NCBI GenBank assembly: GCA_043810615.1
Contig: JBDROA010000092.1
Coordinates: forward strand, 3,235-67,234
Length of the DNA: 64,000 nucleotides
Direction of reading: 5' to 3'
Source of the DNA: Actinomycetota bacterium
GTDB taxonomy: Bacteria; Actinomycetota; Acidimicrobiia; Spongiisociales; UBA11373
A model generated the notes under the pieces. It saw only the letters and a list, made by a program, of their open reading frames with translations, searched no databases and was not told where the DNA came from. Shown here piece by piece: positions 5,122 to 54,198 of this stretch. Position 1 is the first letter of the stretch, and every line of letters starts with the position of its first letter. The position numbers and the translations under genes are program-made.

Positions 5122-5816
5122 TCGAACTGGCCGGAGTGGGCAAGACCTTCGGGGAGGGCGCCGGCCGGGTGCGGGCCCTCGACGGGGTGGACCTCCGCGT
5201 CGCCGCCGGCGAGTTCGTGGTCGTGCTGGGCCCTTCGGGCTGCGGCAAGACCACACTGCTCAACCTCATCGGCGCCCTCGACACGACGACCGAGGGGAGC
5301 CTCCGGGTAGGTGGGGTGGACATTTCGCGCGCCGGCCGCCGGGGGTTGTTCGAGTTCCGCCGGCGGACGGTGTCGTTCGTCTTCCAGAGCTTCAACATCT
5401 TCCCCGGCCTGACGGCGGCGGAGAACGTCCAATTCGGCATCGACGCCGCCGGACGGTCCGGAGTGGACGCCGGGGAGATCCTGGCGAGCGTGGGCCTGGC
5501 GGGCCGGAGTGACAGCTTCCCCCACCAACTCTCTGGCGGCGAGCAGCAGCGGGTGGCCATCGCCCGCGCCCTGGCCACGGGGAACCCCGTGCTGCTGGCC
5601 GACGAGCCCACGGGCGAACTCGACTTTCGCACCGGGGTGCAGATCCTGGGGCTGCTCGAGGGCCGCGCCGCCGAGGGGCGGGCCGTGCTGGTAGTCACCC
5701 ACAACCGCGAGATCTCCCGGGCCGCCGACCGGGTGGTCCAGTTGAGCAGCGGGCGTATCGTCTCCGATGGTCCTCCGGCCGGGGGCCGGGCCCGGACCGC
5801 CGACCTGCACTGGTGA
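5118..5816 (+). CDS. ABC transporter ATP-binding protein (MacB/LolD-type)
   Basis: Walker A GPSGCGKTT, signature LSGGEQQRVAIARAL, Walker B LLADEPTGELD; 232 aa. Confidence 0.9.
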   Translation: MIELAGVGKTFGEGAGRVRALDGVDLRVAAGEFVVVLGPSGCGKTTLLNLIGALDTTTEGSLRVGGVDISRAGRRGLFEFRRRTVSFVFQSFNIFPGLTAAENVQFGIDAAGRSGVDAGEILASVGLAGRSDSFPHQLSGGEQQRVAIARALATGNPVLLADEPTGELDFRTGVQILGLLEGRAAEGRAVLVVTHNREISRAADRVVQLSSGRIVSDGPPAGGRARTADLHW

Positions 5817-8251
5817 GCGGCATGCGCCTGTGGCTTCGCTGGTCGTGGCGGGACATGCGGGCCCATTGGGTCCAGGTGGGGGCCATCGCCCTCGTCATCG
5901 CCCTGGGCACCGGCACCTTCGCCGGCCTCGGGAGCACCGCTCGCTGGCGGCAGCAATCGGCCGACGCCTCGTACGCCCTCCTGGGGTTCCGCGACCTCGA
6001 GGTGGAGCTCAGCGAGGGTTCCTTCGTAGCCCAGGGCACGCTGGCCGGCGCCCTCGATGGGGTCGAGGCGGGCCTCATCTCCGACACCGAGGAGCGCCTC
6101 AAGATCCCCACCCAGATCGATGCCAGCACGCCGACGCAGACGATCCTCGTCCCCGGCGTGGTCATCGGGATGCCTCTCCGGGGTGCCGGGCCCGGGATCG
6201 ACCGCCTCGAGGTTGTAGCGGGCCGGGCGCTGGCGCCGGAGGACGCAGGGGCACCGGTGGTGCTCCTGGAGCGCAACTTCGCCGAGTACTACGACCTGGC
6301 GTCGGCGGGGTCGCTGTCGATCGCCGGTGGGCGAGCGCTGGACTATGTGGGCCGGGCGGCCTCGCCGGAGTACTTCATCGTGATGCCGGAGGACGGGTCC
6401 GGCTTCTTCGTCCAGGCCAACTTCGCCGCCCTCTTCACCTCGCTCCAGACGGCTCAGGAGCTCGGCGGGGTCCCGGGCGGGGTCAACCGGCTGTTGATGC
6501 GCCTGGCCGAAGGGGCCGACCCGGGGCAGGCAGAGCGGTCGGTGGTCGCGGCCTTGGCCGAGCGGCTCCCCGAGGTCGGGGCCACAGTCGTGCCCCGCGG
6601 CGAGCAGCCGGCTTACGTCATGATCTACCAGGACATCGAGAACGACCAGCAGACGTTCAGCATCTTCGCCATGCTGATCTTCGTGGGGGCGGTGACCGCC
6701 GCTTTCAATCTCACAACCCGCCTCGTCGAGGCCCAGCGCCGGGAGATCGGCATCGCCATGGCCCTGGGCGTGCCCCGGCGGCGCATCGCGGTGCGGCCGC
6801 TGCTGGTCGGCGCTCAGATCGCCCTGCTGGGAGTGGCCCTCGGCGTGGTGGTGGGGTGGGTCATCAGCCTGGCGATGCGCCAGGTCCTGCAGGGGTTCTT
6901 CCCGCTCCCCATATGGCTGACCTCGTTCCAGGCGTCGTCCTTCGCCGGGGCGGCGGCAGCCGGCTTCGCCGTCCCATTCGCCGCCGTCGTCTACCCCGTC
7001 TGGCGGGCGGTGCGGGTGCGCCCGATCGAGGCGATCCGGCCCGCCCACCTGGCCCGCCGGATGCGGATGCGGTGGTGGCGCGCTCCGCGGCGGCCGGGCA
7101 ACACGTTCCGGCGCTTGCCGGTGCGCAACCTGGTGCGGGCGCCGCGGCGAACGGTGCTCACCGCCCTCGGAATCGCTTCGGCGATCGCCGTGCTCACCAC
7201 CCTGCTGGGCATGGTCGACTCCTTCGGCCACACGGTGGACATCGGGGAACAGGAGATCCTGGCGGGGAACCAAGATCGGGTGATCGTGGACTTCGACCGG
7301 GTGTATCCGACGGGGGCCCCCGAGGTGACCGCGGTGCTCGCTTCCCCGACCGTCGCCGGGGCGGAGGCCTCATTGGCGGTTCCGGGCCGCCTGGGAGGAG
7401 CAGAGTCGGGGTTCGAGGTGCTGATCGGCCTCACCGACCTCCGGGGTTCCGCCTGGGTGCCGAGCCTGGTCACCGGAAGGCGCGAGGGTGGCGAGGGCCT
7501 GGTGATCTCGCGCAAGGCCGCCGCCGACCTGGGAGTTGAGGCGGGCGACACGGTCCCCCTCATCCATCCCCGGCGTACCGGAGAGGACTCGTACGGGTTC
7601 GCCGTCACAACGGTGGAGGTGATCGGCATCCACGCCGCCCCCTACCGCTTCCTGGCCTACATGGACGCCTCACAGGCGGAGGCCATGGGCCTGGCCGGCC
7701 TGGTGAACCAGGTGAATGCCACCCCGGCACCCGGCCGCACCGTGGACGATGTCAAGCGCAGCCTATTCGAGGTCGGGGCGGTGTCCTCGGTGCAGCCGGC
7801 GACGGTAGTAGCCGATACGTTCCGCGACCTTCTGGGGCGCTTCATCGGCCTCCTGCGGGTGGTGCAGGGCGCGGTGTTCGTCCTCGCCCTGGCCATAGCG
7901 TTCAACTCGGCGAGCCTCAACCTCGACGAGCGGGCCCGCGACCACGCCACGATGTTCGCTTTCGGGGTGTCGCGGCGGCGCGCGTTGGGCCTGGCGATGG
8001 TGGAAGGCACCTTGCTCGGCCTGCTGGCCACCGCCCTGGGCCTCGGAGCCGGCTACGGCCTGGTGCGCTGGTTCGTGACCAGCGTGTTCCCGCGCACCGC
8101 CCCCGACATCGGCCTGCTGCTGTGGATCACGCCCCAGACCCTGGCGGTGGTGGTGGCCATGGGGGTGGCGGCCGTGGCGCTGGCGCCGCTGCTCACCGTG
8201 CGCAGGATGGGCCGTATGGACCTGCCCGGCACCCTGCGGGTAATGGAGTAG
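5813..8251 (+). CDS. ABC transporter permease, FtsX/MacB-type (duplicated FtsX domains)
   Basis: 812 aa. Two repeats of TM1 - large extracytoplasmic domain - three TM helices. Start overlaps the ATPase stop (GTGA/ATGA type coupling). Confidence 0.85.
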   Translation: MSGMRLWLRWSWRDMRAHWVQVGAIALVIALGTGTFAGLGSTARWRQQSADASYALLGFRDLEVELSEGSFVAQGTLAGALDGVEAGLISDTEERLKIPTQIDASTPTQTILVPGVVIGMPLRGAGPGIDRLEVVAGRALAPEDAGAPVVLLERNFAEYYDLASAGSLSIAGGRALDYVGRAASPEYFIVMPEDGSGFFVQANFAALFTSLQTAQELGGVPGGVNRLLMRLAEGADPGQAERSVVAALAERLPEVGATVVPRGEQPAYVMIYQDIENDQQTFSIFAMLIFVGAVTAAFNLTTRLVEAQRREIGIAMALGVPRRRIAVRPLLVGAQIALLGVALGVVVGWVISLAMRQVLQGFFPLPIWLTSFQASSFAGAAAAGFAVPFAAVVYPVWRAVRVRPIEAIRPAHLARRMRMRWWRAPRRPGNTFRRLPVRNLVRAPRRTVLTALGIASAIAVLTTLLGMVDSFGHTVDIGEQEILAGNQDRVIVDFDRVYPTGAPEVTAVLASPTVAGAEASLAVPGRLGGAESGFEVLIGLTDLRGSAWVPSLVTGRREGGEGLVISRKAAADLGVEAGDTVPLIHPRRTGEDSYGFAVTTVEVIGIHAAPYRFLAYMDASQAEAMGLAGLVNQVNATPAPGRTVDDVKRSLFEVGAVSSVQPATVVADTFRDLLGRFIGLLRVVQGAVFVLALAIAFNSASLNLDERARDHATMFAFGVSRRRALGLAMVEGTLLGLLATALGLGAGYGLVRWFVTSVFPRTAPDIGLLLWITPQTLAVVVAMGVAAVALAPLLTVRRMGRMDLPGTLRVME

Positions 8252-8305: not shown

Positions 8306-9496
8306 TCAGGGGACGACGCCGAGGTCTCGACCGACCCGGGCGAAGGCTTCGGCGCCCTGGGCCAGGTCGTCGTGACTGTGGGCTGCCGACACCATGACGC
8401 GGATGCGGGCCTTGCCCCGGGGCACTGTCGGGAAGCCGATGGCCTGGGCGAAGACAGCCTCCCGGTCGAAGAGGCGCCGCGAAACCTCCTGCGCCAGTGA
8501 GGCCTCGCCGAGCATGACCGGGGTGATGGGGGTAGTGCTCACCCCGATGTCGAACCCGGCCGACGCCATCATCCCCTTGAAGCGCCGTGCGTTGTCCCAC
8601 AGTCGGTCCACCAGTTCGGTGGAGGCCGCGAGCAGGTCCACCGCAGCCACGCAGGCCGCCACGTCGGCCGGGGTGGCGGCCGAGGAGAACAGGAAGGGGC
8701 GGGCTCGCTGGCGCAGCCACTCGATGAGGGCGGCCGAACCGGCCACGTAGCCGCCCATGACCCCGAACGCCTTCGACATCGTACCGACCTCGACGTCCAC
8801 CCGGCCGTGAAGGCCGAAGTGGTCGACGATGCCCCGGCCCCCGCGCCCCAGCACCCCTTCGCCGTGGGCATCGTCCACCATCACGAGGGCCTCGTGAGAC
8901 TCGGCGACTGCCACGATGGCATCGAGAGGCGCGATGTCCCCGTCCATGGAAAAGACGCCGTCGCTGATGACCAGGAGGCGGCGCGCCCCGGCGGCGCGGG
9001 CTTCGGCCAGAGCGCGATCCAGATCGGCCGGATCGGCGTGGCGGTAGATGGAGCGGGCCGCCCGGGTCAGGCGCACCCCGTCCACGATGGAGGCGTGGTT
9101 CAGCTCGTCGGAGATCACCGCGTCCCCTTCCCCCACCAGGGCGGCGATCGTGCCCAGGTTGGCGACGAACCCCGATTGCAGGGAGATCGCCGCCGGGACG
9201 CCCTTGAACTCCGCCAGGCGCTCTTCGAGCTGGTCGTGGAGGGTCATGGTGCCGGCGATGGTGCGCACCGCTCCGGGACCCACCCCGAATCGGTCCAGCG
9301 CGGCGTGGGCGGCGGCCACCAGTTTGGGGTGGTTGGCCAATCCCAGGTAGTTGTTGGAGCAGAAGTTGAGTACGCGACGGCCGTCCACGGTGAGCTGGGG
9401 CCCCTGGGGGCCGTCGCTGTGGCGGATCGTGGTGTACAAGCCCTGGGCGCGCAGGGCCTCCAGCTCGTCGGTGAGGTAGGCGGTGCGGTCGGGCAT
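8306..9496 (-). CDS. kbl: 2-amino-3-ketobutyrate CoA ligase (glycine C-acetyltransferase)
   Basis: PLP-dependent class II aminotransferase family. MPDRTAYL...[10 protein letters not shown]...GTMSKAFG (PLP lysine region); 396 aa. Confidence 0.85.
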
Positions 9497-9498
9497 CT

Positions 9499-10569
9499 TC
9501 ACCTCGCGGCAGGGGTCAGGGTGCCGTCGGCGTCCGCCGGGTCGGGGAACATCACCACCTTGCCGCACGCGCCCGACGCCATGAGGCCGAAGGCCGCAGC
9601 GAAGTCCTCGAGGGCGAAGCGGTGGGTGACCACGGGCGACAGGTCGACGGCGTGGGAGCGAAGCATGGCCCGCATCTGATACCAGGTGGCCCACAGCCGG
9701 CGACCGACGATGCCGTGGACCGTGGCCCCCTTGAAGACGATGCGGTCGTCGAAGTCGAAGGAGATGGGGCGGGAGAAGATGCCGAGCAGGGCCGCCTCTC
9801 CGCCGGGCCGGAGGAGCCCGAAGCCCTGGTCGATGGCCGCGGCCACGCCGGACATCTCCAGCAGGACGTCGACCCCGTCGCCGTCGGTGGCGGCCATGAC
9901 TCCGGCCTCGAGGTCTTGCCGGGCCGGGTTGAACACGGCTTCGGCTCCCATCGCCCGGGCCATGGCCAGGCGGTAGTCGCTGACATCGGAGGCCAGGACC
10001 GAGCGGGCGCCCAGGGCGCGGGCAGCAGCGATGGCCATGACACCCACCGGGCCGCACCCTGTCACCAACACCTTGCGACCGGCGACCGCTGGAGTGGAGG
10101 CGGTGTGTACGGCGTTGCCGAAGTTCTCTTGCAGCGAGGCGATGGAGAGGGGCATGTTCGCCGGATCGGGCCAGCAGTTGACCTCAGGGACGGCCACGAA
10201 CTCGGCAAAGACCCCGTCGCGGTGGACACCGAGGATGCGGGTCTGAGGGCAAAGGTGGCCCTTCCCGGTGCGGCAGAGCAAGCAGGTCCCGCAGACGACG
10301 TGAGACTCCACCGAGACCAGCGTTCCGAACGGGGGCCCGGAGACGCCGTCGCCGTGGCCCACCACCACCCCGCACATCTCATGGCCCACCACGAGCGGCG
10401 GCACGATGCGATCGGCGGCCCAGGGGTCCCAGTTGCGGATGTGCAGGTCGGTGCCGCAGATCGACGCCGCCTTCACCTGGAGGAGCACCTCGCCCCGCCC
10501 CGGCCGCGGCGCAGGCACCTCACACATCTCGAGACCGGGACCGGGGCCCGGCTTCACTACGGCCCGCAT
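9499..10569 (-). CDS. tdh: L-threonine 3-dehydrogenase (Zn-dependent alcohol dehydrogenase family)
   Basis: [10 protein letters not shown]...GHEMCGVV...[15 protein letters not shown] zinc sites, GCGPVG Rossmann motif. Internal Met start at 10569 chosen by N-terminal homology (MKALVK-type). Stop sits 2 nt before the kbl start. Confidence 0.85.
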
Positions 10570-10661
10570 TGCCCGCACCCTAACGGGAACGGGCCTGAGG
10601 TTGCACGTCGGAGCGGCGGGCGAGCGCCGGGCAAACACCGCGATCGGGCCATACTGGCGGC

Positions 10662-12299
10662 ATGCGTTGGCGCGTCTTGACCGCCGGGGCGACCCTGGCT
10701 CTTGCGGGCCTAGCCGTCGCGGTCCCGGCGACGGCGGCGCCGGCCGGAGGAGGGGCGATCGTGGTCCGCGCCCGGTTCGACGCCACCATGCCCGAGCGTT
10801 TCGGGCTCGATGCCGACGAGGACGGCCTGATCGACCTGCCGAACACCCCGGCCTACGTCCGCCCCGGCGGGGGCCTGCAGTGCGGCCCGGACTGCGGGCC
10901 GCTTTTCACCCTGCGCCTGGACGCCACAGAGAGCACGGCGACCATGGGCGGGGGGCCCCTGCCCTTGGCGTCCTACCGATGGGAAATCACCGGGCCGGCG
11001 GGGCGACGGGTGGTGCGCCGCGGGACGGACCCCCGTCTCGAGGTTCCGCTGCCCGAGGGCCGCTACCGGGTCGCTCTGGAGGTCGAAGCCGCTCTGCCCT
11101 GGGGCAGTGCGCGGGGCCGGTCGGTCCGCGAGATCGTGGTGGAGGACCTGCTGGTCGTGGCCATCGGGGACTCCTACGCCGGCGGAGAGGGGAACCCGGA
11201 GCGACCCCGCAGCGAGGGCGATGTCCCCGCGGCATGGGCCGATGCGCCCGGAGACCCCGCTACCGAGGCGGCCCATGCTGCCGCCCACCGCTCCACGGTG
11301 GCCTGGCCGGCCCTGGCCGCCCTGGCCCTGGAACGGGCCGATGCCGGGACTTCGGTGACCTTCGTGTCGGTGGCCGCGAGCTCGGCGCGGGTCGAGGCCG
11401 GCTTGCTGGGCCCCTAGTCCGGGGTGAGCCCGACGGGGCAGCTCGACCAGGTGGCGACGCTGACGGAGGGGCGGCGCATCGATCTGCTGTTGGTTTCGGT
11501 AGGGGGGAACGACATCGGCTTCGCCCGGATTCTGTCCGGCCTGGTGGACGCCGATCGCCTGACCGACCCGCTGTGCTACGGCACCGATCTGCAGAACATC
11601 TGGGAGGCGGCGCTCGACGGCGACTGGAACCGCGACTCCGGCCTCCACTTCGCCCTGCCCTGGGGACTGGGCTGCCGCCCGACGCGGACTTGGGGGAATC
11701 CCGTGCTCCCCGGGCTGCGGGGGCTCCCGGCAGAGCTCGACCGCCTGGCGGCCGCGGTCGATCGCCTTGACGCGGCGGCGGTGTATCTGATGGAGTACCC
11801 CGATCCCACCGGGGCGGGGGCGGAGGACGGCGGCTGCGGCGAGATCGTGGGGGACGCGACGCCGCCGTTCCGCTTCCACGAGATCAACCGGGCCGAGCAG
11901 GAGGAGGGGCTCGCGCGGGTGGTGCGGCCCCTCAACCGGATCCTGGCGGCGGCGGCGAGCCGCCACGGCTGGGGGTTCGTCGGGGGAGTGGCCGAGGGGT
12001 TCGCGGCCGGCCACGGGTACTGCGGCACTCGGCCGGCCTACTCGTCGGCGACCGGGGAGCCGACGGGCTCCCCGGCATCGGGAGCGGGCGGCACAAGGTC
12101 GTGGTACCGGCATCCGGCCGGCCTCGAGGCAGCGCAGGCTCTCACGGGCGAGGGGGTGGGCTGGTATCGCACCGCGACACAATCGGTCGTGCTCCAGGGG
12201 CCGGGCACTGCCTGGGACACGGCCGGCACGATGCACCCCAACGAGCTCGGGCACCTCGCCATGGCCCGCTCCCTGCTGGCGGCGCTGCCAGGAGACTAG
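10662..12299 (+). pseudogene. Secreted SGNH/GDSL-family hydrolase interrupted by a single in-frame TAG (11418-11420)
   Basis: ORFs 10662-11417 and 11424-12299 share one frame, separated only by TAG. The first part has a signal peptide and block I GDSYAGG (catalytic Ser). The second part has block III GGND and block V DTAGTMHPNELGH (Asp/His). The triad is therefore split across the stop. Confidence 0.5.
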
Positions 12300-12401
12300 T
12301 CACCTGGATCCAGCGGAATGATCCCGCGGCTACTACGCGGAGTGGTAGGTTGGGGGTAGGTGACCGCCTAGAGTGGTAGCCATTCGGGCAGAGGGACCAC
12401 A

Positions 12402-13019
12402 ATGACCGGAGCCGAGGGCCACAACGAGCGGTTCGGCAAGGTGCTGCGGATCACCGCGCTCGTCGCCACACTGGTCGCCCTGGCAGCCGTCATCGGTCCC
12501 CGGCTGGCCTCCTCGGGCGGCGGCGGCAGCACCGTGGCCACCGCTGCCGCCTGGGTCCCTGCCGAGGCCACACCAGCGGCGACCCCCACCTGGCCGACGG
12601 TCCCGGCCGCGCGCCTCACCACCGCGCCACCCGTGACCACCACGACCGCACCGGCGGTGGTGTTCCCGGTGACGCCCGTCGAGGACGGCGGCGCCGTAGA
12701 CCTGGCTCTCGCCGGAACGCACGCCGGCCGCTATGGGCCGGAGCGCGCCGGGTTCTTCGCCGGGGACACAATCGGCTGGCGCTTCCAGGTGACCAACAGC
12801 GGTGAGGAGTACCTGTGGGGGGTGTTCGTGTACCTGGAGTTGTACGGCCCGGTGACCTGCGCCTCCCGCCGCCTCGAGGTGGGGGCAAGCACCGAGTGTT
12901 GGGCCGAGACCAACGCCCTCGTCCCCACCAGCGGCGCCGAAGCCTGGGTCACGGCGTGGACCGAGGCGCGCATGGTCGGCGATCGGTTGTCACATCGGGT
13001 CGGCACCGCCGTCGGCTGA
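12402..13019 (+). CDS. Hypothetical membrane-anchored protein with Pro/Thr-rich linker and small C-terminal Cys-pair domain
   Basis: N-terminal TM helix (ITALVATLVALAAVIG), a PT-rich stretch, and a C-terminal ~90 aa domain (CASRRLEVGASTEC). RBS GAGGGA lies 8 nt upstream. Confidence 0.5.
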   Translation: MTGAEGHNERFGKVLRITALVATLVALAAVIGPRLASSGGGGSTVATAAAWVPAEATPAATPTWPTVPAARLTTAPPVTTTTAPAVVFPVTPVEDGGAVDLALAGTHAGRYGPERAGFFAGDTIGWRFQVTNSGEEYLWGVFVYLELYGPVTCASRRLEVGASTECWAETNALVPTSGAEAWVTAWTEARMVGDRLSHRVGTAVG

Positions 13020-18428: not shown

Positions 18429-19942
18429 GCCTCGCGGTCCACAAGGTCCTCGGGACGGAGACCGAGTTCGGCATCACGGTACGCGGACGGCCGGGGTACG
18501 ACCCGGCCACGGCGAGCAGCCTGGTGGTGGCGGCCTACGCCGGCCCCCGGCGCATTCGCTGGTCCTACGACGGGGAGACGCCGGGCCGCGACGCTCGGGG
18601 GTTCGGGAACGGCTCCGCCGACTTCGACAGCGGCATGCTCAACGCGGTGCTGCCCAATGGGGCCCGGCTGTACGTCGATCACGCTCACCCCGAGTTCTCC
18701 ACCCCGGAGTGCTTCGACCCCCTGGAGGCCGCGCTCTACGACAAGGCGGGAGAGTTGGTCCTGGCCCGGGCGGCGGCCGCCGCCCAAGGCGCTCTGGGCC
18801 CGGGAGAGCGCCTGCTCATCCACAAGAACAACAGCGACGGCAAGGGCAACTCCTACGGGGCCCACGAGAACTACCTCATGGCCCGTGGGGTGCCGTTCGG
18901 GGACGTGGTGGCACATCTGACCGCCTTCCTGGTGACCCGCCAGGTGTTCACCGGGGCGGGAAAGGTTGGGAGCGAAAACGGCCGTCCGGCCGTGCCTTTC
19001 CAGCTCAGCCAGCGCGCCGACTTCTTCGAGGAGGAGGTGGGGCTGGAGACCACACTCAAGCGGCCCATTGTCAACACCCGCGATGAGCCCCACGCCGACC
19101 CGGGGATCTACCGGCGGCTGCACGTGATCGCCGGTGACGCCAACCTGTCGGAGAAACAGATCCTCCTGAAGCTGGGGAGCACCGCCCTGGTGTTGGCGGC
19201 GCTCGAGGCCGGGGCGCTGGGGCGGCCGCTCCTCCTGAAGGACCCGGTGGGGGCCATGTGGCGGATCAGCCACGATCCGGGGCTGCGGCAGACCGTGCGG
19301 CTTGGCGGGGGGAAGAGCATCACCCCCCTAGAAGTGCAGCGTGAGTACCTCGCGCGGGTGCGCGACTACGCGGCCGCGGCCGATACCGGCCCGGTGCAAC
19401 TGCAGGTGCTGGGCCTCTGGGAGGAGGTTCTGGAGGCCCTGGAAAGCGACCCCCTGTCCACCTCGGGCTACCTGGACTGGGCCGCCAAGCTGGCGCTGCT
19501 CGAGGGTTACCGCGAGCGCGACGGGTTGCCCTGGTCGCATCCCAAGCTGCGCCTGCTCGACCTGCAGTACCACGACGTCGACCCGCAGCGAAGCCTGCAC
19601 CGCCGCCTGGTCCAGGCCGGGCGCATGGAGAGACTGTTCACCGACGACGACGTCGAGCGCGCTACCACGGAGCCGCCGGAGCGGACCCGGGCCTACTTCC
19701 GGGGGCGCTGTCTGGCCCGGTTCGGGGAGGCGGTGGTCGCGGCCAATTGGGACTCCCTGATCCTCGACGTCGGGGAGGATGCGCTGAGACGGGTGCCTAT
19801 GATGGACCCACTGCGCGGCGGCCGGGAGCGGGTGGCCGATCTCATCGATCGGTCCGCCTCGCCTGCCGATCTGGTCCGAGCCCTCGGAGGAGCCAATGGC
19901 CGAACAGGAACGCAAGCAGCGCCGCCGGAGCGGGCCCTCTGA
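18425..19942 (+). CDS. dop: Pup deamidase/depupylase
   Basis: 505 aa, carboxylate-amine ligase fold paralogous to PafA (GTETEFG...). First PafA-like gene after mpa, directly upstream of pup. GTGA overlap with mpa. Confidence 0.85.
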
Positions 19943-20090
19943 GGAAGGCACGCAGGGCGTCGCCACCCCGCGCGGGGTCGGGGGAGAACTGGCGGGGCAA
20001 ATCGACGACCTCCTCGATGAGATCGATTCGGTGCTCGAGGAGAACGCCGAGGAGTTCGTCAGGAACTACGTGCAGAAGGGGGGCCAGTGA
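19896..20090 (+). CDS. pup: Prokaryotic ubiquitin-like protein Pup
   Basis: 64 aa, disordered and acidic, ends ...YVQKGGQ (GGQ C-terminus requiring Dop deamidation). Starts inside the 3' end of dop. Confidence 0.9.
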   Translation: MAEQERKQRRRSGPSEEGTQGVATPRGVGGELAGQIDDLLDEIDSVLEENAEEFVRNYVQKGGQ

Positions 20091-20881
20091 CCGAGGCGCG
20101 GGCCGGGGGCCTGCCCTGGGACGCGGTCGTCCCGGCGGCGAGCTTCACCGCCCTGTTGCGCTCCCGCGGTTTGGAGCCGCGCTGGACCCTTCCCGCCGAA
20201 GCCGCCGCCCTGGAGGCGCCTGAAGGCACCACGGTGCTTGCCTTCCGTTACGCCGACGGGGTGCTCATGGCCGGGGACCGGCGGGCCACCGCCGGCAACG
20301 TGATCGCGCACCGCAACCTCCAGAAGGTCTTCCCGGCCGACGGCCTGTCGGCCGTGGCCATCTCCGGCACCGCCGGTATCGCCATCGAGCTCATCCGCCT
20401 CTTCCAGACCGAACTGGAGCACTACGAGAAGCTCGAAGGCAGCCGCCTGAGCCTCGAGGGCAAGGCCAACCACCTGGCCGCAATGGTCCGGGCCCAGCTT
20501 CCCATGGCCTTCCAGGGCCTGATGGTGGTGCCCGTGTTCTGCGGCTTCGACGAGGGCGCCGGGCGGGGCCGGCTGTACAGCTACGACGTCGTCGGGGGCC
20601 GCTACGAGGAGACCGACTTCACCGCCACCGGATCCGGTGGGCCGTACGCCAAGGCCCACCTGCGCGGCGCCTTCCGGGAAGGGCTCGGAGAGGACGACGC
20701 CCTGCGGGTGGCGGTCGAGGCGCTCGTGGCCGCCGCCGAAGAGGACTCGGCCACCGGGGGCCCCGACCTGCAGCGGGGCATCTACCCCAACGTGGTGGTG
20801 ATCACGGCGGAGGGATACCGGGAGGTGGCCGAGGACCGGGTGGCCGATGCCGCCCGTCGGGCGATGGGAGAGGTGCGATGA
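20087..20881 (+). CDS. prcB: 20S proteasome beta subunit
   Basis: Propeptide followed by GTTVLAFRYADGVLMAGDRR (active-site Thr). GTGA overlap with pup. Confidence 0.9.
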   Translation: MTEARAGGLPWDAVVPAASFTALLRSRGLEPRWTLPAEAAALEAPEGTTVLAFRYADGVLMAGDRRATAGNVIAHRNLQKVFPADGLSAVAISGTAGIAIELIRLFQTELEHYEKLEGSRLSLEGKANHLAAMVRAQLPMAFQGLMVVPVFCGFDEGAGRGRLYSYDVVGGRYEETDFTATGSGGPYAKAHLRGAFREGLGEDDALRVAVEALVAAAEEDSATGGPDLQRGIYPNVVVITAEGYREVAEDRVADAARRAMGEVR

Positions 20882-21552
20882 CCGTCCCGTTCTACGTCCC
20901 GCCCGAGCAGCTCATGAAGGACCGGGCGGAGTACGCCCGCAAAGGCATCGCCCGTGGCAAGTCGATCGCGGCGGTGGAGTACGCCGACGGCATTCTGCTG
21001 GTGGCGGAGAACCCCAGCGGCACTTTGCACAAGATCAGCGAGATCTACGACCGCATCGCCTTCGCCGGGGTGGGCAAGTACAGCGAGTTTGAGACGCTGC
21101 GGGTGGCCGGCATTCGCCACGCCGACCTCAAGGGGTTCTCCTACGCCCGCAGCGACGTCACCGCGAAGTCGCTGGCCAACGCCTATTGCCACGCCCTGGG
21201 CCAGATCTTCACGCAGGAAGTGAAGCCCTACGAGGTGGGAATAATGGTGGCCGAGGTGGGTGACTGCAGCGATGCCAATCTGCTCTTCAAGTTGACCTAC
21301 GACGGCACCCTGAGCGCCGAGGACGACGTGGCGGCCATCGGCGGCCAGGAGGAGCAGCTCACCGCCCACCTGCGGCAGAGCTTCCGGCCCGACGCCACGC
21401 TCACCGAGGCGGTGCAGTGGGCGATCGCCGCCTTCCAGACGGCGAGCTCCCGCACCTTCCAGCCGAACGAGTGGGAGGCGGCGGTGGTCGATCGGCGGCT
21501 GGGGCGGCGCTCCTTCCGGCGGCTGGCCGCCGAGGAGATGGCCGGCCTCTAG
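20878..21552 (+). CDS. prcA: 20S proteasome alpha subunit
   Basis: [29 protein letters not shown]... 224 aa. ATGA overlap with prcB. Confidence 0.9.
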
Positions 21553-21923
21553 GCCAGCCGGCTCAGCAGGCGCCAAACCAGCACGGCGAGCATCCCCAGG
21601 GCGACGGCCGCCCACCAGGTTCGCATCCCCGCCCCGGAACCTGCCGCACCCGCGGGCTCGGCTCCTCCCCGAGGGGCGGTGTCGACTTCGCCGGGGACCG
21701 TGGCCTCCTCCAGGAGGCTCCGGGCATCATCGAGCTGGGCCGCGGGCACCCAGACCTCTGTGGCGGCCATCTCGCCGATGGTGAGCCGGTAGGGCCCGAG
21801 CGACTCGCCCCGCAGACGGGACTCGATGCCGGCCGAACGCAGCAGGGCGGCGCAGAGGTCGGCCGCCGCCGGGTCGGGCAGGGTGGCAAGGCGCACGAAG
21901 GGAGCGGGGGCCCGCGAGGTCAT
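21549..21923 (-). CDS. DUF2007-like small protein with C-terminal TM helix
   Basis: 124 aa from ATG 21923 ([37 protein letters not shown]...). C-terminal [20 protein letters not shown] helix. Antisense between prcA and pafA. Confidence 0.5.
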
Positions 21924-21989
21924 CCCCGGGCATGGTATCGACCGGCCGGGCGTAGCCGGGAGCAACCCCGGCGGGGTACGCTGCCCGCC

Positions 21990-23345
21990 GTGGAGCGCCG
22001 CATCGTCGGGATGGAGAACGAGTACGGAGTGACCTGCACCCTGCACGGGCAGCGTCGGCTCTCGCCCGACGAGGTGGCCCGCTACTTGTTCCGCCGGGTG
22101 GTGTCGTGGGGCCGCTCGTCGAACGTCTTCCTGGAGAACGGGGCGCGCCTGTACCTGGATGTGGGGAGCCACCCGGAGTACGCCACCCCCGAGTGCGACA
22201 GCCTCTACGAGTTGGTGGCCCACGACAAGGCCGGCGAGCGAGTGCTCGAGGGCCTGCTGCACTCCGCCGAAGGGCGCCTCGAAGAAGAAGGCATCCGGGG
22301 ACAGGTGCACCTCTTCAAGAACAACACCGATTCGGCCGGCAACTCCTACGGGTGCCACGAGAACTACCTGGTGGCCCGCCAAGGCGACTTCCAGCAGATG
22401 CTCGACACGCTGATCCCGTTCTTCGTCAGCCGCCAGGTGTTCGCCGGCTCGGGCAAGGTGCTGCACACCTCCCGCGGCGCGGTGTTCTGCCTGGCGCAGC
22501 GGGCCGAGCACATCTGGGAGGGGGTTTCCTCGGCCACCACCCGCAGCCGGCCCCTCATCAACACGCGCGACGAGCCACACGCCGACGCCGAGCGCTACCG
22601 GCGGCTGCACGTGATCGCCGGCGACTCCAACATGAGCGAGTACGCCACCTACGCCAAGGTGGGGAGCACCCTCGCCCTGCTCCAGATGCTCGAAGAGGGG
22701 GTCGTCTTCCGCGACCTGAGCCTGGAGAACCCCATCCGGGCGCTGCGAGAGATTAGCCGCGACCTCAGTTGCCGGCGGCGGGTCCGCCTGGCCAACGGGC
22801 GGGAGCTATCGGCGCTGGACATCCAATGGGAGTACCTGGAACGGGTGCTGCGCTACTCCCGCGCCCATCCCTTCCCGCCCCAGGTCGAATCGGCGGTGGG
22901 GATGTGGGAGCACCTGCTCACCGGGCTGGAGAAGGACCCACTCTCGCTGCGCCGGGAGTGCGACTGGGTGGCGAAGTACCACCTGGTCGAGGACTACCGC
23001 GCCCGGCGCCGACTGGAACTGGGCGACGCCCGGGTGGCCCTCCTCGACCTGGCCTACCACGACGTGACCCGGGAGCGGGGCCTCTATTACCTGCTGGAGC
23101 GGCGCGGGATGGTGGATCGGGTGGTCACCGACGAGGACGTCGGGCGCGCTCTGCTCAACCCGCCCCAGACCACTCGGGCCCGGCTGCGCGGCGAGTTCAT
23201 CAAGGCGGCCAAGGCCGGCCAGCGCGACTTCACGGTGGACTGGGTGCACCTCAAGCTGAACGACCAGGCGCAGCGCACCGTGCTGTGCAAGGACACCTTC
23301 CGGGCCTTCGACGAGCGGGTAGACCGCCTCATCGCCGGGCTCTGA
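21990..23345 (+). CDS. pafA: Pup--protein ligase
   Basis: GTG 21990 gives [47 protein letters not shown]..., co-linear with the mycobacterial PafA N-terminus; 451 aa. The 190-aa upstream ORF extension overlapping prcA was rejected. Confidence 0.85.
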
Positions 23346-23393
23346 ATCGGGCGTGCCTTCTCGCAGGGGGCGGCAGGGGATACAGTCGGACAG

Positions 23394-24317
23394 ATGCAGC
23401 GGGTCATAGAGCGCCTCCTCAATCTGCTCGCCTTCCTCCTCAACGCCGGGCGGCCGGTGACCGCCGACGAGATCCGTCACACCGTGGCGGGGTACGGCCA
23501 GGAGGGGGACGAGGCCTTCCGGCGCACCTTCGAGCGCGACAAGGACCTGCTGCGCCAGTTGGGCATACCGCTGCGGCTGGCCCCCACCGACGCCTGGGAG
23601 GTGGAACAGGGCTATGTGGTGCGGGGCGAGGAGTACGCCTTGCCCGACCCGGGGCTCAGCGACGAGGAGCGGACCGCCCTTTGGCTGGCGGCCCAGGTGG
23701 TGCGGGTCGGCGGACAGGCTCCGGACCCGGCCGTCCTCTTCAAGCTGGGCGGGGCTCCCCCCGCCTTCACCGGAGCCACCCTGGGGGCCGACATCGGCGC
23801 GGTCTCGGACGACCTGGCGGAGTTGTTCGCCGCGGTGACCGAGGCCCGGCTCGTCTCGTTCACCTACAAGGGGAAGGAGCGCCGGGTGCGCCCCTACGGC
23901 CTGGTGCATCGGCGCGGGCACTGGTACCTGGTCGGGCCGCAGGCGGGCGAGAAGGAGGGTCGGGCCTTTCGCATCGACCGCCTCAGCGGCCTCGCGGTGG
24001 GCTCACGGCCGGGGGCCTTTTCCCGCCCGAAGGGCTTTCGCGCCGCCGACGCCGTGCCCGCCGTTCCTTGGGAGGCGGGGGAGGCCGGCATCGAAGTCGC
24101 CGTTCGCTTCGACCCCGCGGTCGCCTGGTGGGCCGGGCGCCAACTGACGGGGGACGCCGTGGTGGAGGAGGAGGCCGGCGGAGGCCTTCTCGCCCGCTTC
24201 TCGGTGGCGGCGCTGGATCCCTTCATCGGGTGGATGGTGGGGTTCGAGGACGCGGCCGAGGTGCTTTCCCCTCCCGAAGTGCGGCGGGCCCTCCTGGCCC
24301 ACGTGGGTGAATCGTGA
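23394..24317 (+). CDS. pafB: Proteasome accessory factor B (HTH + WYL domain transcriptional regulator)
   Basis: N-terminal wHTH (MQRVIERLLNLLAFLLNAGRPVTADEIRHTV), central WYL region; immediately downstream of pafA. Confidence 0.8.
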   Translation: MQRVIERLLNLLAFLLNAGRPVTADEIRHTVAGYGQEGDEAFRRTFERDKDLLRQLGIPLRLAPTDAWEVEQGYVVRGEEYALPDPGLSDEERTALWLAAQVVRVGGQAPDPAVLFKLGGAPPAFTGATLGADIGAVSDDLAELFAAVTEARLVSFTYKGKERRVRPYGLVHRRGHWYLVGPQAGEKEGRAFRIDRLSGLAVGSRPGAFSRPKGFRAADAVPAVPWEAGEAGIEVAVRFDPAVAWWAGRQLTGDAVVEEEAGGGLLARFSVAALDPFIGWMVGFEDAAEVLSPPEVRRALLAHVGES

Positions 24318-25246
24318 GCCGCGAGCGCACCGCCGCCCGTCTCTCGCGCTTGCTGGGCATGCTCCCCTGGGTCATCGGCCATCCCGGGGCCGAGGTTGGC
24401 GAGGTGTGCTCTCGCTTCGGGTACAGCCGGGCCGAACTGGCCCGCGACCTGGCCGCGGTCTTCGTGAGCGGTCTTCCCGGCTACGGGCCCGGCGACCTCA
24501 TGGTGGCCTACCTCGACGGCGACGAAGTGGTGGTCGATCTCGCCGACTACTTCGCCCGCCCGGTACGCCTCACCGCCGGCGAGGGCCTGGCCCTGCTGGC
24601 CGCCGGCATGGCGCTGGCTTCTTCGGGGGCCGCCCCGGAGGCGCTGAGCACCGCCGTCTCCAAACTCGCCGCGGTGCTCGTCCCCGACGACGGCACCCTG
24701 GCGGTGGGGCTGCCCGCTCCCCCGGAGGTGGTCGCCACCCTCGGCCGGGCTGCTGCCGGCGGCGAGGTGGTCCGGCTCACCTACACCTCTCTGGGGCGGG
24801 GGAAGACCACGATGCGGCAGGTGGAACCGTGGCGGGTGTTCTCCACCCTCGGCAACTGGTACCTGAGCGGGCACTGCCGCCTGGCCGAAGGAGAGCGGGT
24901 CTTCCGCGTCGATCGCATCCGCGAGGCGTCGCTCACCGGGGAGCGGTTCACCCCCCCGGCCGAGTCGCCGCCGGCCGAAGTGCGCTACGCCCCGGCCGCA
25001 GACGACGTGTCGGCGCTGATCCGCCTCGGGCCGGGCGCGGAGTGGGTGGCGGACTACTACCCGGTCGAGGTGGTACGGCGCGAGGGGGACCGCGCGGTGG
25101 TGCGGTTCAGCGCCTCGGACCCGGCGGTCACGGCGCGGCTCCTCGTCCGCCTGGGGGGGATGGCCGACTTGCTGGAGGGTCCCGAAGTGGCTGCGGCGGC
25201 AGCCGACCTGCGGGCCCGAATCCGACGGCGCTACCGCACTGCCTAG
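24314..25246 (+). CDS. pafC: Proteasome accessory factor C (HTH + WYL domain)
   Basis: GTGA overlap with pafB. MSRERTAARLSRLLGMLPWV... Paralogous architecture to PafB. Confidence 0.8.
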   Translation: MSRERTAARLSRLLGMLPWVIGHPGAEVGEVCSRFGYSRAELARDLAAVFVSGLPGYGPGDLMVAYLDGDEVVVDLADYFARPVRLTAGEGLALLAAGMALASSGAAPEALSTAVSKLAAVLVPDDGTLAVGLPAPPEVVATLGRAAAGGEVVRLTYTSLGRGKTTMRQVEPWRVFSTLGNWYLSGHCRLAEGERVFRVDRIREASLTGERFTPPAESPPAEVRYAPAADDVSALIRLGPGAEWVADYYPVEVVRREGDRAVVRFSASDPAVTARLLVRLGGMADLLEGPEVAAAAADLRARIRRRYRTA

Positions 25247-44494: not shown

Positions 44495-44583
44495 GCTAGG
44501 GAGGCGCTCTGCCAATCCGGGGGGACCTATCCTGGGATCGTGCCCCATGCCGCTTCACCCTGGGCTGCCGCCCGGAGCCGTTC

Positions 44584-45918
44584 GTGACCCGCCTCCCGGT
44601 GGTGGCGGTCGTGGGACGGCCCAATGTGGGGAAGTCCACTCTGGTGAACCGGGTCTTGCGCCGGCGGGCCGCGGTGGTCGAGGAGAAGCCCGGTGTCACC
44701 CGCGACCGCAAGGAGTTCACCGCCGAGTGGGCCGGTCGGTACTTCATCCTGGTGGACACGGGCGGTTGGGCAGTCAAGGGCGACGACCTCGTCGCCGGCA
44801 TCCGTCACCAGGCTGAAGCCGCTCTGGGCACCGCCGACGTGGTGGTGTTCGTGGCCGACGCCACCACCCACTACACCGAAGACGACCTGGCCGTGGCCCG
44901 CCTCGCCCAGGCGTCGGGGGTGCCGGCGGTCCTGGCCGCCAACAAGGCCGACGGCCCCGGGGTGGACCTCGAAGTGGGGCACCTGTGGGGCCTCGGATTG
45001 GGCCAGCCGTATCCGATAAGCGCCTTGCACGGCCGGGGGACCGGGGACCTGCTCGACGCCATCGTGGCCCGCCTGCCGGAACCGGAGGGCGAGGAGGGCC
45101 CCCCCGGAGAGCGCCTCCCCACGCTGGCCATCCTCGGCCGCCCGAACGTGGGGAAGTCGACCCTGCTGAACCGGCTGCTGGGGGAAGAGCGGGTCCTCGT
45201 GTCGCCCGAGCCGGGCACCACTCGCGACCCTATCGACGCCGTGGTGGAACTGGACGGCGAGCCCTTCCGGGTGTGGGACACGGCCGGCATCCGTCGGACC
45301 AGCCGGGTCGATGAGGCGACGGAGTTCTACTCGGTCCAGCGAGCGCGCCAGGCCTTGGGCGCGGCCGACATCGCCCTGCTCGTGGCCGACGCCACTCAGG
45401 GGATCACCCACCAGGAGCAGCGCCTGGCCGAGGAGATCGCCGCCGCCGGGGCCGGGCTGATCATCCTGCTGAACAAGTGGGACGCCGCCGACCCCGAGGC
45501 CAAGGAGACCACCGAGGACGGCACGGGCGACCGCCTGGGCTTCGTCGGCTGGGCCCCGGTGCTCCGAGTGGCGGCGATCACGGGGTCCCGCCTCCATCGC
45601 CTGCCCGCCGCCGTACGCGCCGTGCTGGAGGCCCGGCGCTCTCGGGTGCCCACTCCCGAGCTCAATCGCCACGTCAGGAGCTGGCAGGAGGCCCATCCCG
45701 CCCCGACCCGCAAGGGCCGGCGGGCCCGCATCATGTACGCAGTGCAAGCCGGAGTGGAGCCCCCCACCTTCGTTCTGTTCGTTCGGGGCGGCGAACTGAG
45801 CCCCGACTACCTCCGGTTCCTCGAAGGCCGCCTGCGGGGGGAGTACGACTTCGTGGGCACCCCGCTGCGCCTGGTGGCCCGTTCGCGGCGGCAGCGGGAG
45901 GACCGGCCGGGGGAGTAG
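44584..45918 (+). CDS. der: Ribosome-biogenesis GTPase Der (EngA), tandem GTPase domains + KH-like domain
   Basis: Two G-domains: GRPNVGKSTL ... DTGG, and GRPNVGKSTLLN ... DTAG. 444 aa. Confidence 0.9.
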   Translation: MTRLPVVAVVGRPNVGKSTLVNRVLRRRAAVVEEKPGVTRDRKEFTAEWAGRYFILVDTGGWAVKGDDLVAGIRHQAEAALGTADVVVFVADATTHYTEDDLAVARLAQASGVPAVLAANKADGPGVDLEVGHLWGLGLGQPYPISALHGRGTGDLLDAIVARLPEPEGEEGPPGERLPTLAILGRPNVGKSTLLNRLLGEERVLVSPEPGTTRDPIDAVVELDGEPFRVWDTAGIRRTSRVDEATEFYSVQRARQALGAADIALLVADATQGITHQEQRLAEEIAAAGAGLIILLNKWDAADPEAKETTEDGTGDRLGFVGWAPVLRVAAITGSRLHRLPAAVRAVLEARRSRVPTPELNRHVRSWQEAHPAPTRKGRRARIMYAVQAGVEPPTFVLFVRGGELSPDYLRFLEGRLRGEYDFVGTPLRLVARSRRQREDRPGE

Positions 45919-46054: not shown

Positions 46055-46115
46055 CCACATATCGGCCGCCAGTCCCGCCGCGTAGGCGGAGACCTGCCAG
46101 GAGGGCCCACCGCCG

Positions 46116-46763
46116 ATGAGCGACAAGATCGAGTTCACCCGCAACTACCACGACCAGAGCACGGACGAGGGCTTCCAGTTCGAGTTCGTCTGCGATCGTT
46201 GCGACACCGGGTTCCGCACTCCCTTCGACACCTACGTCGCGGCCCGGGTGGCGGGAGGCCTTCAAACCGCTTCCAGCCTGCTCGGCGGTCTCTTCGGGCG
46301 CGCCGCCGAGGTCACCGAGCAGGTACGCTCGGCCGCCTGGGAGAAGGCTCACGACAAAGCGTTTCGCGAGGCTGCGGCGACGCTGAAGCCCGACTTCCGC
46401 CAGTGCCCGCGGTGCTCGGCGTGGGTGTGCCGCCGCCAGTGCTGGAATGACGGCAAGGGCCTCTGCAAGAGCTGCGCCCCTGACCTCGGCGTCGAGATGG
46501 CCGCCGCCCAATCCTCGCGGACGGTGGAGGAGATCTGGGCCCACTCCAAGGTGGCCGAAGAGGACCGCGCCATGCTGACCGAGGAATCGTGGCGGGAAGG
46601 GGCCACCGCTTCCTGCCCGCGGTGCGAGGCCCCGCTTCCGGCCAAGACCAAGTTCTGCCCCGACTGCGGCGCCCGCATCGGCGAGGCGGGGGCCTGCGCC
46701 AAGTGTGGCGCCAAGCTGGAGTCCGGCGCCAAGTTCTGCGGGGAGTGCGGCACCAAGGCGTAG
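46116..46763 (+). CDS. Multi zinc-ribbon protein (uncharacterised)
   Basis: Three Cys clusters: CDRCDTGF; CPRCSAWVCRRQCW...CKSC; and a C-terminal double zinc ribbon CPRCEAPLPAKTKFCPDCGARIGEAGACAKCGAKLESGAKFCGECG. 215 aa. Confidence 0.55.
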   Translation: MSDKIEFTRNYHDQSTDEGFQFEFVCDRCDTGFRTPFDTYVAARVAGGLQTASSLLGGLFGRAAEVTEQVRSAAWEKAHDKAFREAAATLKPDFRQCPRCSAWVCRRQCWNDGKGLCKSCAPDLGVEMAAAQSSRTVEEIWAHSKVAEEDRAMLTEESWREGATASCPRCEAPLPAKTKFCPDCGARIGEAGACAKCGAKLESGAKFCGECGTKA

Positions 46764-54028: not shown

Positions 54029-54198
54029 CCCGGACCGCCGGCGAGAGAGCGGCGAGGGCCCGGCGCTAGGCTGGGCCCGGTGATCGTCGGCCGTTCCTTC
54101 CGGCTTTCCCCCGGAGCGCACGCCCAGCACGGCGTCCTCCCGACTGGGGGCGCGGCTTGCGGCGATACGGCCTCCGGCATACCCGCTCGGGGGACTTA

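What the first reader, a model, noticed from the sequence alone, without database searches (positions are those of the whole stretch)
10662..12299. Secreted SGNH hydrolase whose catalytic triad is split by a single in-frame amber codon
Two ORFs share one frame and are separated only by TAG at 11418-20. Catalytic Ser block I (GDSYAGG) lies upstream of the stop; block III (GGND) and block V (D..HP) lie downstream. Neither half could be active alone. Possible explanations are a recent pseudogenisation, a sequencing error, or stop-codon read-through. The N-terminal part also has an Ig/PKD-like region between the signal peptide and the catalytic domain.
Basis: seen in the sequence. Interest (0 to 1): 0.5.

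Follow-up and report, generated by a model that had tools for sequence, protein, structure and literature searches.

The report
Esterase gene broken by one stop codon
A normally intact 545-residue secreted esterase gene of an uncultured Acidimicrobiia bacterium carries a single C-to-T change that turns a glutamine codon into a stop; this is most likely a very young pseudogene or a base-call error, so the finding is ordinary.

Summary
Two same-frame ORFs (10662-11417 and 11418/11424-12299) are separated by one TAG.

Read through, they give a 545-aa protein collinear with more than 120 single-chain homologues of about 530-550 aa from Acidimicrobiia MAGs and metagenomes. The nearest orthologue (88% aa) has CAG where the window has TAG, and the seven codons upstream are identical. 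61 of 94 homologues have Gln there.

Apart from the stop, the gene is undamaged:
- dN/dS against the nearest orthologue is 0.29 upstream and 0.24 downstream of the stop.
- Only 1 of 122 highly conserved columns deviates.
- There are no frameshifts.

TAG is an ordinary terminator in this window, including for this gene itself. There is no suppressor or Pyl tRNA in the window and no unusually stable RNA structure after the TAG.

Verdict: a recent nonsense mutation (about 0.7) or a sequence error (about 0.25). Recoding is very unlikely. Low interest.

The parts
10662..12299 (+). Whole disrupted gene. The read-through product is 545 aa: signal peptide, Ca-loop-like motif, beta-sandwich and SGNH esterase domain.
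   Evidence: Collinear with more than 120 full-length homologues. Synteny kbl-tdh | SGNH | 205-aa hypothetical | MFS is conserved with L082.
10662..11417 (+). 5' ORF of 251 codons plus the premature TAG. It carries the signal peptide, the beta-sandwich and SGNH blocks I and II.
10662..10739 (+). Probable Sec signal peptide, MRWRVLTAGATLALAGLAVAVPATA|AP.
   Evidence: Sequence inspection only: basic N-terminus, hydrophobic core, A-x-A. Residues 1-30 have low pLDDT in the AF2 model of the orthologue. No signal-peptide predictor was available.
10809..10835 (+). Conserved DxDxDGxxD motif (D50-D58), resembling a calcium-binding loop.
   Evidence: D50 is invariant. D52, D54, G55 and D58 are at least 90% conserved. 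The calcium-binding function is inferred from the motif only.
10902..11141 (+). Ig/FN3-like seven-strand beta-sandwich domain, about residues 81-160.
   Evidence: AF2 model of the 88%-identical orthologue has strands E82-170 at pLDDT above 90. Foldseek gives weak FN3/Ig hits at E 0.01-0.05. There is a weak profile match to 2yrl, E 0.3.
11166..11174 (+). SGNH block I, G169-D170-S171. The Ser171 nucleophile codon is at 11172-11174.
   Evidence: Invariant in 30/30 and 94/94 homologues.
11415..11417 (+). Premature amber codon (codon 252), derived from CAG (Gln) by a C-to-T change at 11415.
   Evidence: The nearest orthologue L001 has CAG with identical flanking codons. Gln is found in 61 of 94 homologues.
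11418..12299 (+). 3' remainder of the gene: 293 codons plus the terminal TAG, first start codon GTG at 11424. It carries blocks III and V and has no signal peptide of its own.
   Evidence: dN/dS is 0.24. Only 1 of 74 conserved columns deviates.
11502..11513 (+). SGNH block III, G281-G282-N283-D284. The oxyanion-hole Asn283 codon is at 11508-11510.
   Evidence: Invariant. The equivalent Asn82 is essential in the S. rimosus lipase (PMC10779480).
12225..12245 (+). SGNH block V, G522-T-M-H525-P-N-E528. The catalytic His525 codon is at 12234-12236, with Gly instead of Asp at His-3.
   Evidence: G522, T523, H525, P526, N527 and E528 are invariant.

Best explanation
This is one gene, not two. It is the orthologue of a conserved, syntenic, roughly 545-aa secreted esterase of Acidimicrobiia. 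The domain order is signal peptide, Ig-like beta-sandwich, then an SGNH domain of the Streptomyces SEST/SrL type.

A single C-to-T transition at 11415 converted Gln252 (CAG) into an amber stop. Translation would end after residue 251. The resulting exported fragment has the nucleophile Ser171 and block II but lacks the oxyanion Asn283 and the general-base His525. Any product reinitiated at GTG 11424 would lack both a signal peptide and the nucleophile. The enzyme is therefore inactive in this genome.

The rest of the gene shows no decay, so the event is very recent: a young or polymorphic pseudogene allele.

Shown: the gene is one unit, the ancestral codon, the lack of further damage, and that TAG is a normal terminator here. 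Inferred: loss of activity, secretion, and that the base is real rather than a base-call error.
For: - One gene: more than 120 single-chain homologues of about 530-550 aa span the stop, and A1 is collinear.
- Ancestral codon: the nearest orthologue L001 (88% aa, 88.5% nt) reads GGC CCC CAG TCT where the window reads GGC CCC TAG TCC. CAG or CAA is also found in L082, L083, L085, L003, L004 and L005. Gln is found in 61 of 94 homologues.
- Synteny: the L082 locus matches at kbl 88%, tdh about 90%, the hypothetical protein 57% and MFS 81%, and its SGNH gene is intact.
- No decay: dN/dS is 0.286 for the N-half and 0.244 for the C-half. Only 1 of 122 columns that are at least 90% conserved deviates, against a median of 3 for intact homologues. 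There are no frameshifts.
- TAG is a terminator: it ends Der/EngA, PafC, an FtsX permease, a zinc-ribbon protein and this gene itself at the family's conserved C-terminus.
- Assembly quality: the other genes checked in the window are intact, so the assembly is not error-ridden.
- Catalytic residues: Ser, Asn and His are each essential in the structural relative SrL (PMC10779480).
Against: No reads are available, so a base-call or consensus error at 11415 cannot be excluded. The pristine state of the gene fits an error equally well.

The source genome, or an identical strain, was not found in any collection. Whether the allele persists in a population is therefore unknown.
Confidence: 0.7

Rival explanations
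1. Sequencing, base-calling or consensus artefact. The true base at 11415 is C (CAG, Gln) and the gene is intact and functional. The T would come from a read error, a systematic base-call error, or a minor strain variant picked up in a MAG consensus.
For: The rest of the gene is indistinguishable from a functional orthologue: dN/dS is about 0.25 on both sides, and only 1 of 122 conserved columns deviates. The change is a single transition from the orthologous codon.
Against: Substitution errors in finished consensus sequence are rarer than real pseudogenes, which run at a few per cent of bacterial genes (general knowledge). No other broken gene or frameshift was seen among about 25 genes checked in the window. 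That argues against a low-quality assembly. The question cannot be settled without reads.
Confidence: 0.25
2. The amber codon is decoded, by a natural suppressor tRNA, pyrrolysine or context-dependent read-through. A full-length active esterase would then still be made, possibly at a low or regulated level.
For: The lack of decay downstream of the stop would fit continued selection on the full-length product.
Against: - TAG terminates this same gene at the family's conserved C-terminus, and terminates Der, PafC, FtsX and a zinc-ribbon gene.
- The only tRNA in the window is tRNA-Pro(GGG).
- RNA downstream of the TAG folds no better than shuffles, z = +1.66.
- None of the more than 120 homologues is reported with a break here, and the column is an ordinary, variable loop position (Q, R, G, A, P and others).
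- Orthologues with available DNA encode CAG or CAA.
- Pyl systems are not known in Acidimicrobiia (own knowledge; not testable from a 64-kb window).
Confidence: 0.03
3. A genuine two-gene arrangement, or a split enzyme whose halves reassemble.
For: A GTG lies two codons after the stop, so reinitiation is conceivable.
Against: No homologue is split here. The short hits are either cut by a contig end (L092) or broken by a different lesion (L091). The C-terminal half has no signal peptide, whereas the N-terminal half is exported. The conserved Cys residues suggest an extracellular disulfide-bonded fold.
Confidence: 0.02

Closest known systems
Streptomyces scabies esterase SsEst (PDB 1ESC), Streptomyces rimosus extracellular lipase SrL (PDB 5MAL) and S. 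albidoflavus phospholipase A1 (4HYQ): the SEST-like branch of SGNH/GDSL hydrolases
   Same: - They are also the best PDB sequence-profile hits, on blocks I, III and the GHGYC region.
- All are secreted actinobacterial enzymes.
- GDS, GxND and HPN motifs are present.
- The block V Asp is absent, as in these Ser-His dyad enzymes (PMC10779480).
   Different: - Sequence identity is only 20-30%.
- The protein is about 545 aa rather than about 230-300 aa.
- It has an extra N-terminal DxDxDG motif and Ig-like beta-sandwich, and large insertions in the catalytic domain (about residues 300-350 and 455-515).
- Pfam GDSL scores are below the gathering threshold.
- Substrate is unknown.
- In this window the gene is interrupted by a stop codon.
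Ordinary bacterial pseudogenes created by a nonsense point mutation
   Same: A single-base change creates a premature stop in an otherwise conserved, syntenic gene. Orthologues are intact.
   Different: There is nothing distinctive. It is simply very young: no secondary lesions and no relaxed dN/dS.
Carbohydrate esterase family 2 (e.g. PDB 2W9X), with a beta-sandwich plus SGNH architecture
   Same: It is the top Foldseek hit (E 8e-7). It has the same domain order, an N-terminal beta-sandwich followed by an SGNH domain.
   Different: TM-scores are low (0.19/0.30) and identity is 12%. The catalytic domain is much closer to SsEst and SrL. No evidence for carbohydrate esterase activity was obtained.

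Membership tests
SGNH/GDSL hydrolase superfamily | Block I GDS(L) with the nucleophilic Ser near the start of the domain | tested here: met
   G169-D170-S171 is invariant in 30/30 and 94/94 homologues. It is upstream of the stop.
SGNH/GDSL hydrolase superfamily | Block II Gly (oxyanion hole backbone) | tested here: inconclusive
   The family consensus is SVAASGA. The window and P0001 have Ser at the Gly position (AASSAR), and other members have K or S. Structural equivalence was not checked residue by residue. A Gly-to-Ala change is tolerated in SrL.
SGNH/GDSL hydrolase superfamily | Block III GxND with the oxyanion-hole Asn | tested here: met
   G281-G282-N283-D284 is invariant. It is downstream of the stop.
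SGNH/GDSL hydrolase superfamily | Block V DxxH (catalytic His with Asp at His-3) | tested here: not met
   His525 is invariant, but His-3 is an invariant Gly (G522). D519 is not conserved. The same deviation occurs in the SEST-like dyad enzymes, so it does not exclude superfamily membership.
SGNH/GDSL hydrolase superfamily | Three-layer alpha/beta/alpha flavodoxin-like SGNH fold | tested here: met
   [not shown]
SGNH/GDSL hydrolase superfamily | Curated profile match (Pfam PF13472 or PF00657 at or above the gathering score) | tested here: not met
   Scores are 24.4 bits vs a cut-off of 32.9, and 16.9 vs 23.6. There was no NCBIfam hit. Many homologues do carry a precomputed PF13472 hit.
SEST-like Ser-His dyad subgroup (SsEst, SrL, SaPLA1) | No acidic residue at His-3, closest fold to 1ESC/5MAL, and secreted | tested here: met
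   [not shown]
SEST-like Ser-His dyad subgroup (SsEst, SrL, SaPLA1) | Esterase or lipase activity | not testable with these tools
   No biochemical data exist for any member of this 545-aa family.
   There was no Pfam PKD hit at E <= 1. There is a weak profile hit to 2yrl, E 0.3. A seven-strand beta-sandwich is predicted, with weak FN3/Ig Foldseek hits at E 0.01-0.05. Ig-like fold is supported; PKD membership is not shown.
Programmed stop-codon recoding (pyrrolysine or suppression) | TAG not used as a general terminator, a dedicated tRNA-CUA, and a conserved in-frame TAG in orthologues | tested here: not met
   TAG ends at least 5 verified genes in the window. No tRNA-CUA is present in the window. 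Orthologues have CAG or CAA. The rest of the genome could not be examined.

The most novel reading that the evidence does not exclude
The amber codon is decoded at a useful rate, by a suppressor tRNA or by read-through, in this uncultured Acidimicrobiia lineage. A full-length secreted esterase would then still be produced, which would explain why the gene shows no decay downstream of the stop.
Probability: 0.03. Interest if true: 0.55.

Novelty: new member of a known kind. Interest (0 to 1): 0.1.

Why it matters
It matters little. At most it marks strain-level loss of one secreted esterase in an uncultured Acidimicrobiia lineage. For annotators, it flags a site that should be called as a single pseudogene, or checked against reads, rather than annotated as two hypothetical proteins.

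The underlying 545-aa family is uncharacterised. It has a Ca-loop-like motif, an Ig-like sandwich, and a dyad-type SGNH domain with large insertions, and it is widespread in Acidimicrobiia MAGs. It could be a modest target for enzyme discovery, but that does not depend on the stop codon.

Tried and rejected
- **Finding the source genome or near-identical strains, to see whether the TAG allele recurs.** None of these succeeded:
  - An exact-protein look-up of the 251-aa ORF found nothing.
  - No 100%-identical half-length hit appeared among the protein hits.
  - A 32-mer DNA pattern around the site with N at the variable base found nothing in metagenome contigs.
  - A protein-seeded metagenome scan gave nothing closer than 68%.
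- **Recoding signals.** No suppressor or Pyl tRNA was found. There is no stable RNA structure after the TAG. No promoter-like or terminator-like sites lie in 10300-12700.
- **Other single-stop splits in the window.** Six other same-frame adjacent ORF pairs were inspected. They are separate genes with intergenic spacers. Neighbouring overlapping ORF pairs are complete, distinct genes.
- **Short homologues as possible natural half-genes.** P0116 is cut by a contig end. P0111 is broken by an unrelated frameshifting deletion. So there is no conserved split.
- **NCBIfam.** It gave no hit.

Full report
**1. Observation**

The sequence and ORF list show an ATG-initiated ORF at 10662-11417 of 251 codons, ending in TAG. 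The same reading frame continues open from 11418 to a TAG at 12297-12299, with the first start codon a GTG at 11424. Straight translation of 10662-12299 gives 545 sense codons with a single internal stop at codon 252.

The cited motifs are present and in the stated order:
- GDSYAGG is residues 169-175.
- GGND is residues 281-284.
- HPNE is residues 525-528.

GC3 is 0.88 in the first half and 0.90 in the second, in a 72-74% GC region. Both halves are therefore in the coding frame.

**2. It is one gene**

A search with the read-through product returned more than 120 proteins. Nearly all are 520-570 aa, cover 90-100% of the query and come from Acidimicrobiia/Actinomycetota MAGs and metagenomes. 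The best hit, P0001, is 88% identical. The alignment is collinear across the stop (A1).

At the stop column, the closest homologues read GLLGPQSG or GLLGPQPG. Gln occurs in 61 of 94 aligned homologues, with R, G, A, P and others in the rest. It is an ordinary, moderately conserved loop position.

At DNA level, the nearest orthologue (L001, 88.5% nt identity) reads GGC TTG CTG GGC CCC CAG TCT GGG GTG. The window reads GGC TTG CTG GGC CCC TAG TCC GGG GTG. Other orthologues with available DNA have CAG or CAA at the site. The lesion is therefore a single C-to-T transition at 11415 (Gln252 to amber).

The locus is orthologous. In L082, a 350-kb ENA contig carrying the intact P0004, the neighbours are the same as in the window:

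| Neighbour | Strand | aa identity to window |
|---|---|---|
| kbl | - | 88% |
| tdh | - | about 90% |
| 205-220-aa hypothetical | + | 57% |
| MFS transporter | - | 81% |

**3. State of the gene apart from the stop**

- Nei-Gojobori dN/dS against L001 is 0.286 for codons 1-251 and 0.244 for codons 253-545, with dS about 0.28 in both halves. There is no relaxation downstream.
- Of 122 columns that are at least 90% conserved in 94 homologues, the window deviates at one (E269 vs G). The median for intact homologues is 3.
- There are no frameshifts and no further stops.

The lesion is therefore either very recent or not real.

**4. Is TAG read as sense here?**

TAG is the terminator of this same gene at the family's conserved C-terminus (...ALPGD). 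It also terminates Der/EngA (44500-45918), PafC (24311-25246), an FtsX/MacB permease (5513-8251) and a zinc-ribbon protein (46086-46763). The domain matches of these genes run to their ends.

The only tRNA in the window is tRNA-Pro(GGG). The 106 nt around and after the TAG fold less stably than shuffled controls (z = +1.66). No promoter-like or terminator-like signals lie in the region.

Programmed recoding is therefore unsupported. The rest of the genome could not be examined.

**5. Is the assembly error-prone?**

Six other same-frame adjacent ORF pairs are separate genes with spacers. Ten overlapping neighbour ORFs are complete and distinct: Pup, proteasome, NAD kinase, RecN, NUDIX, XerC/D-type recombinase, GcvPA/PB and others.

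No other broken gene was seen. That argues mildly for a real mutation over an artefact. Without reads, an artefact remains a serious rival (about 0.25).

**6. What the protein is**

Pfam gives only sub-threshold GDSL matches (24.4 vs 32.9 bits), and NCBIfam gives nothing.

An AlphaFold2 model of the intact 88%-identical orthologue is confident (pLDDT 91.3, pTM 0.90). It shows:
- a disordered N-terminus, consistent with a signal peptide;
- a short region containing a conserved DxDxDGxxD motif and a Cys pair;
- a seven-strand beta-sandwich (about residues 82-165);
- an alpha/beta domain.

These enzymes lack the block V Asp and work with a Ser-His dyad. In SrL, Ser10, Asn82 and His216 are each essential (PMC10779480). 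"Dyad" is therefore more likely than "triad".

The beta-sandwich gives only weak FN3/Ig matches (Foldseek E 0.01-0.05; 2yrl E 0.3). Ig-like is reasonable, but PKD is not shown. Substrate is unknown.

**7. Mechanistic consequence (inferred)**

Termination at codon 252 falls between block II and block III. The exported fragment would carry the nucleophile but lack both the oxyanion Asn and the His. A product reinitiated at GTG 11424 would have no signal peptide and no nucleophile.

**8. Attempts to find the same strain**

All attempts to locate the source genome or a near-identical strain failed. Allele frequency and age are therefore unknown.

Short homologues are not natural half-genes. P0116 is cut by a contig end. 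P0111 (L091) carries an independent frameshifting deletion exactly at the VVAIGDS motif. This hints that the family is dispensable and sporadically lost, or that metagenome assemblies occasionally break it.

**9. Verdict**

This is a routine nonsense lesion in a conserved but uncharacterised secreted SGNH esterase gene.

| Explanation | Probability |
|---|---|
| Real, very young or polymorphic pseudogene | about 0.70 |
| Base-call or consensus error | about 0.25 |
| Functional read-through | about 0.03 |
| Genuine split gene | about 0.02 |

Interest is low (0.1). It should be annotated as one pseudogene, or checked against reads.

Noticed in passing
L091:1-1604 (JGI 3300069047, contig Ga0617983_0000484): A 61%-identical homologue (P0111) is independently broken. 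The N-terminal part (…VTVEDLL) is in a different frame from the rest (DSYAAGDGNPE…), which implies a deletion, not a multiple of 3, exactly at the catalytic VVAIGDS motif. This is either a second pseudogene in the family or an assembly error.
   Followed up: partly
L082:8845-9907 (ENA ERZ25039554 contig_4388): In the syntenic relative that has the intact esterase, the neighbouring threonine dehydrogenase-like gene is split into two frames. The tblastn pieces are 9907-9347 and 9360-8845, and the called product is only 154 aa. This is a frameshift or a long-read indel error.
   Followed up: partly
window 10809-10835 and 10881-10895: The family's N-terminus carries a nearly invariant DxDxDGxxD motif (D50-D58), which resembles a calcium-binding loop. 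It also has a conserved Cys74/Cys78 pair. Further conserved Cys at 305, 338, 392 and 454 suggest disulfides of an extracellular protein.
   Followed up: no
window 12402-13019 (+): A 205-aa protein with an N-terminal hydrophobic segment and no Pfam match lies immediately downstream of the esterase. It is conserved in the same position in L082 (57% identity). Its function is unknown.
   Followed up: partly
window 8306-10572 (-): A kbl-tdh pair (2-amino-3-ketobutyrate CoA ligase-like aminotransferase and Zn-dependent threonine dehydrogenase-like ADH) is transcribed divergently from the esterase. About 90 nt separate the two start codons. The esterase is far less conserved (69%) than these neighbours (88-90%) between the window and L082.
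   Followed up: partly
window 19803-25246: A Pup-proteasome cluster (Pup, proteasome subunits, PafC-like HTH/WYL regulator) is present and intact. The same cluster lies near the esterase locus in L082.
   Followed up: no
window 54070-57019 (+): Glycine dehydrogenase is encoded as two subunits (GcvPA and GcvPB). This is a normal two-gene arrangement, not a split pseudogene.
   Followed up: partly
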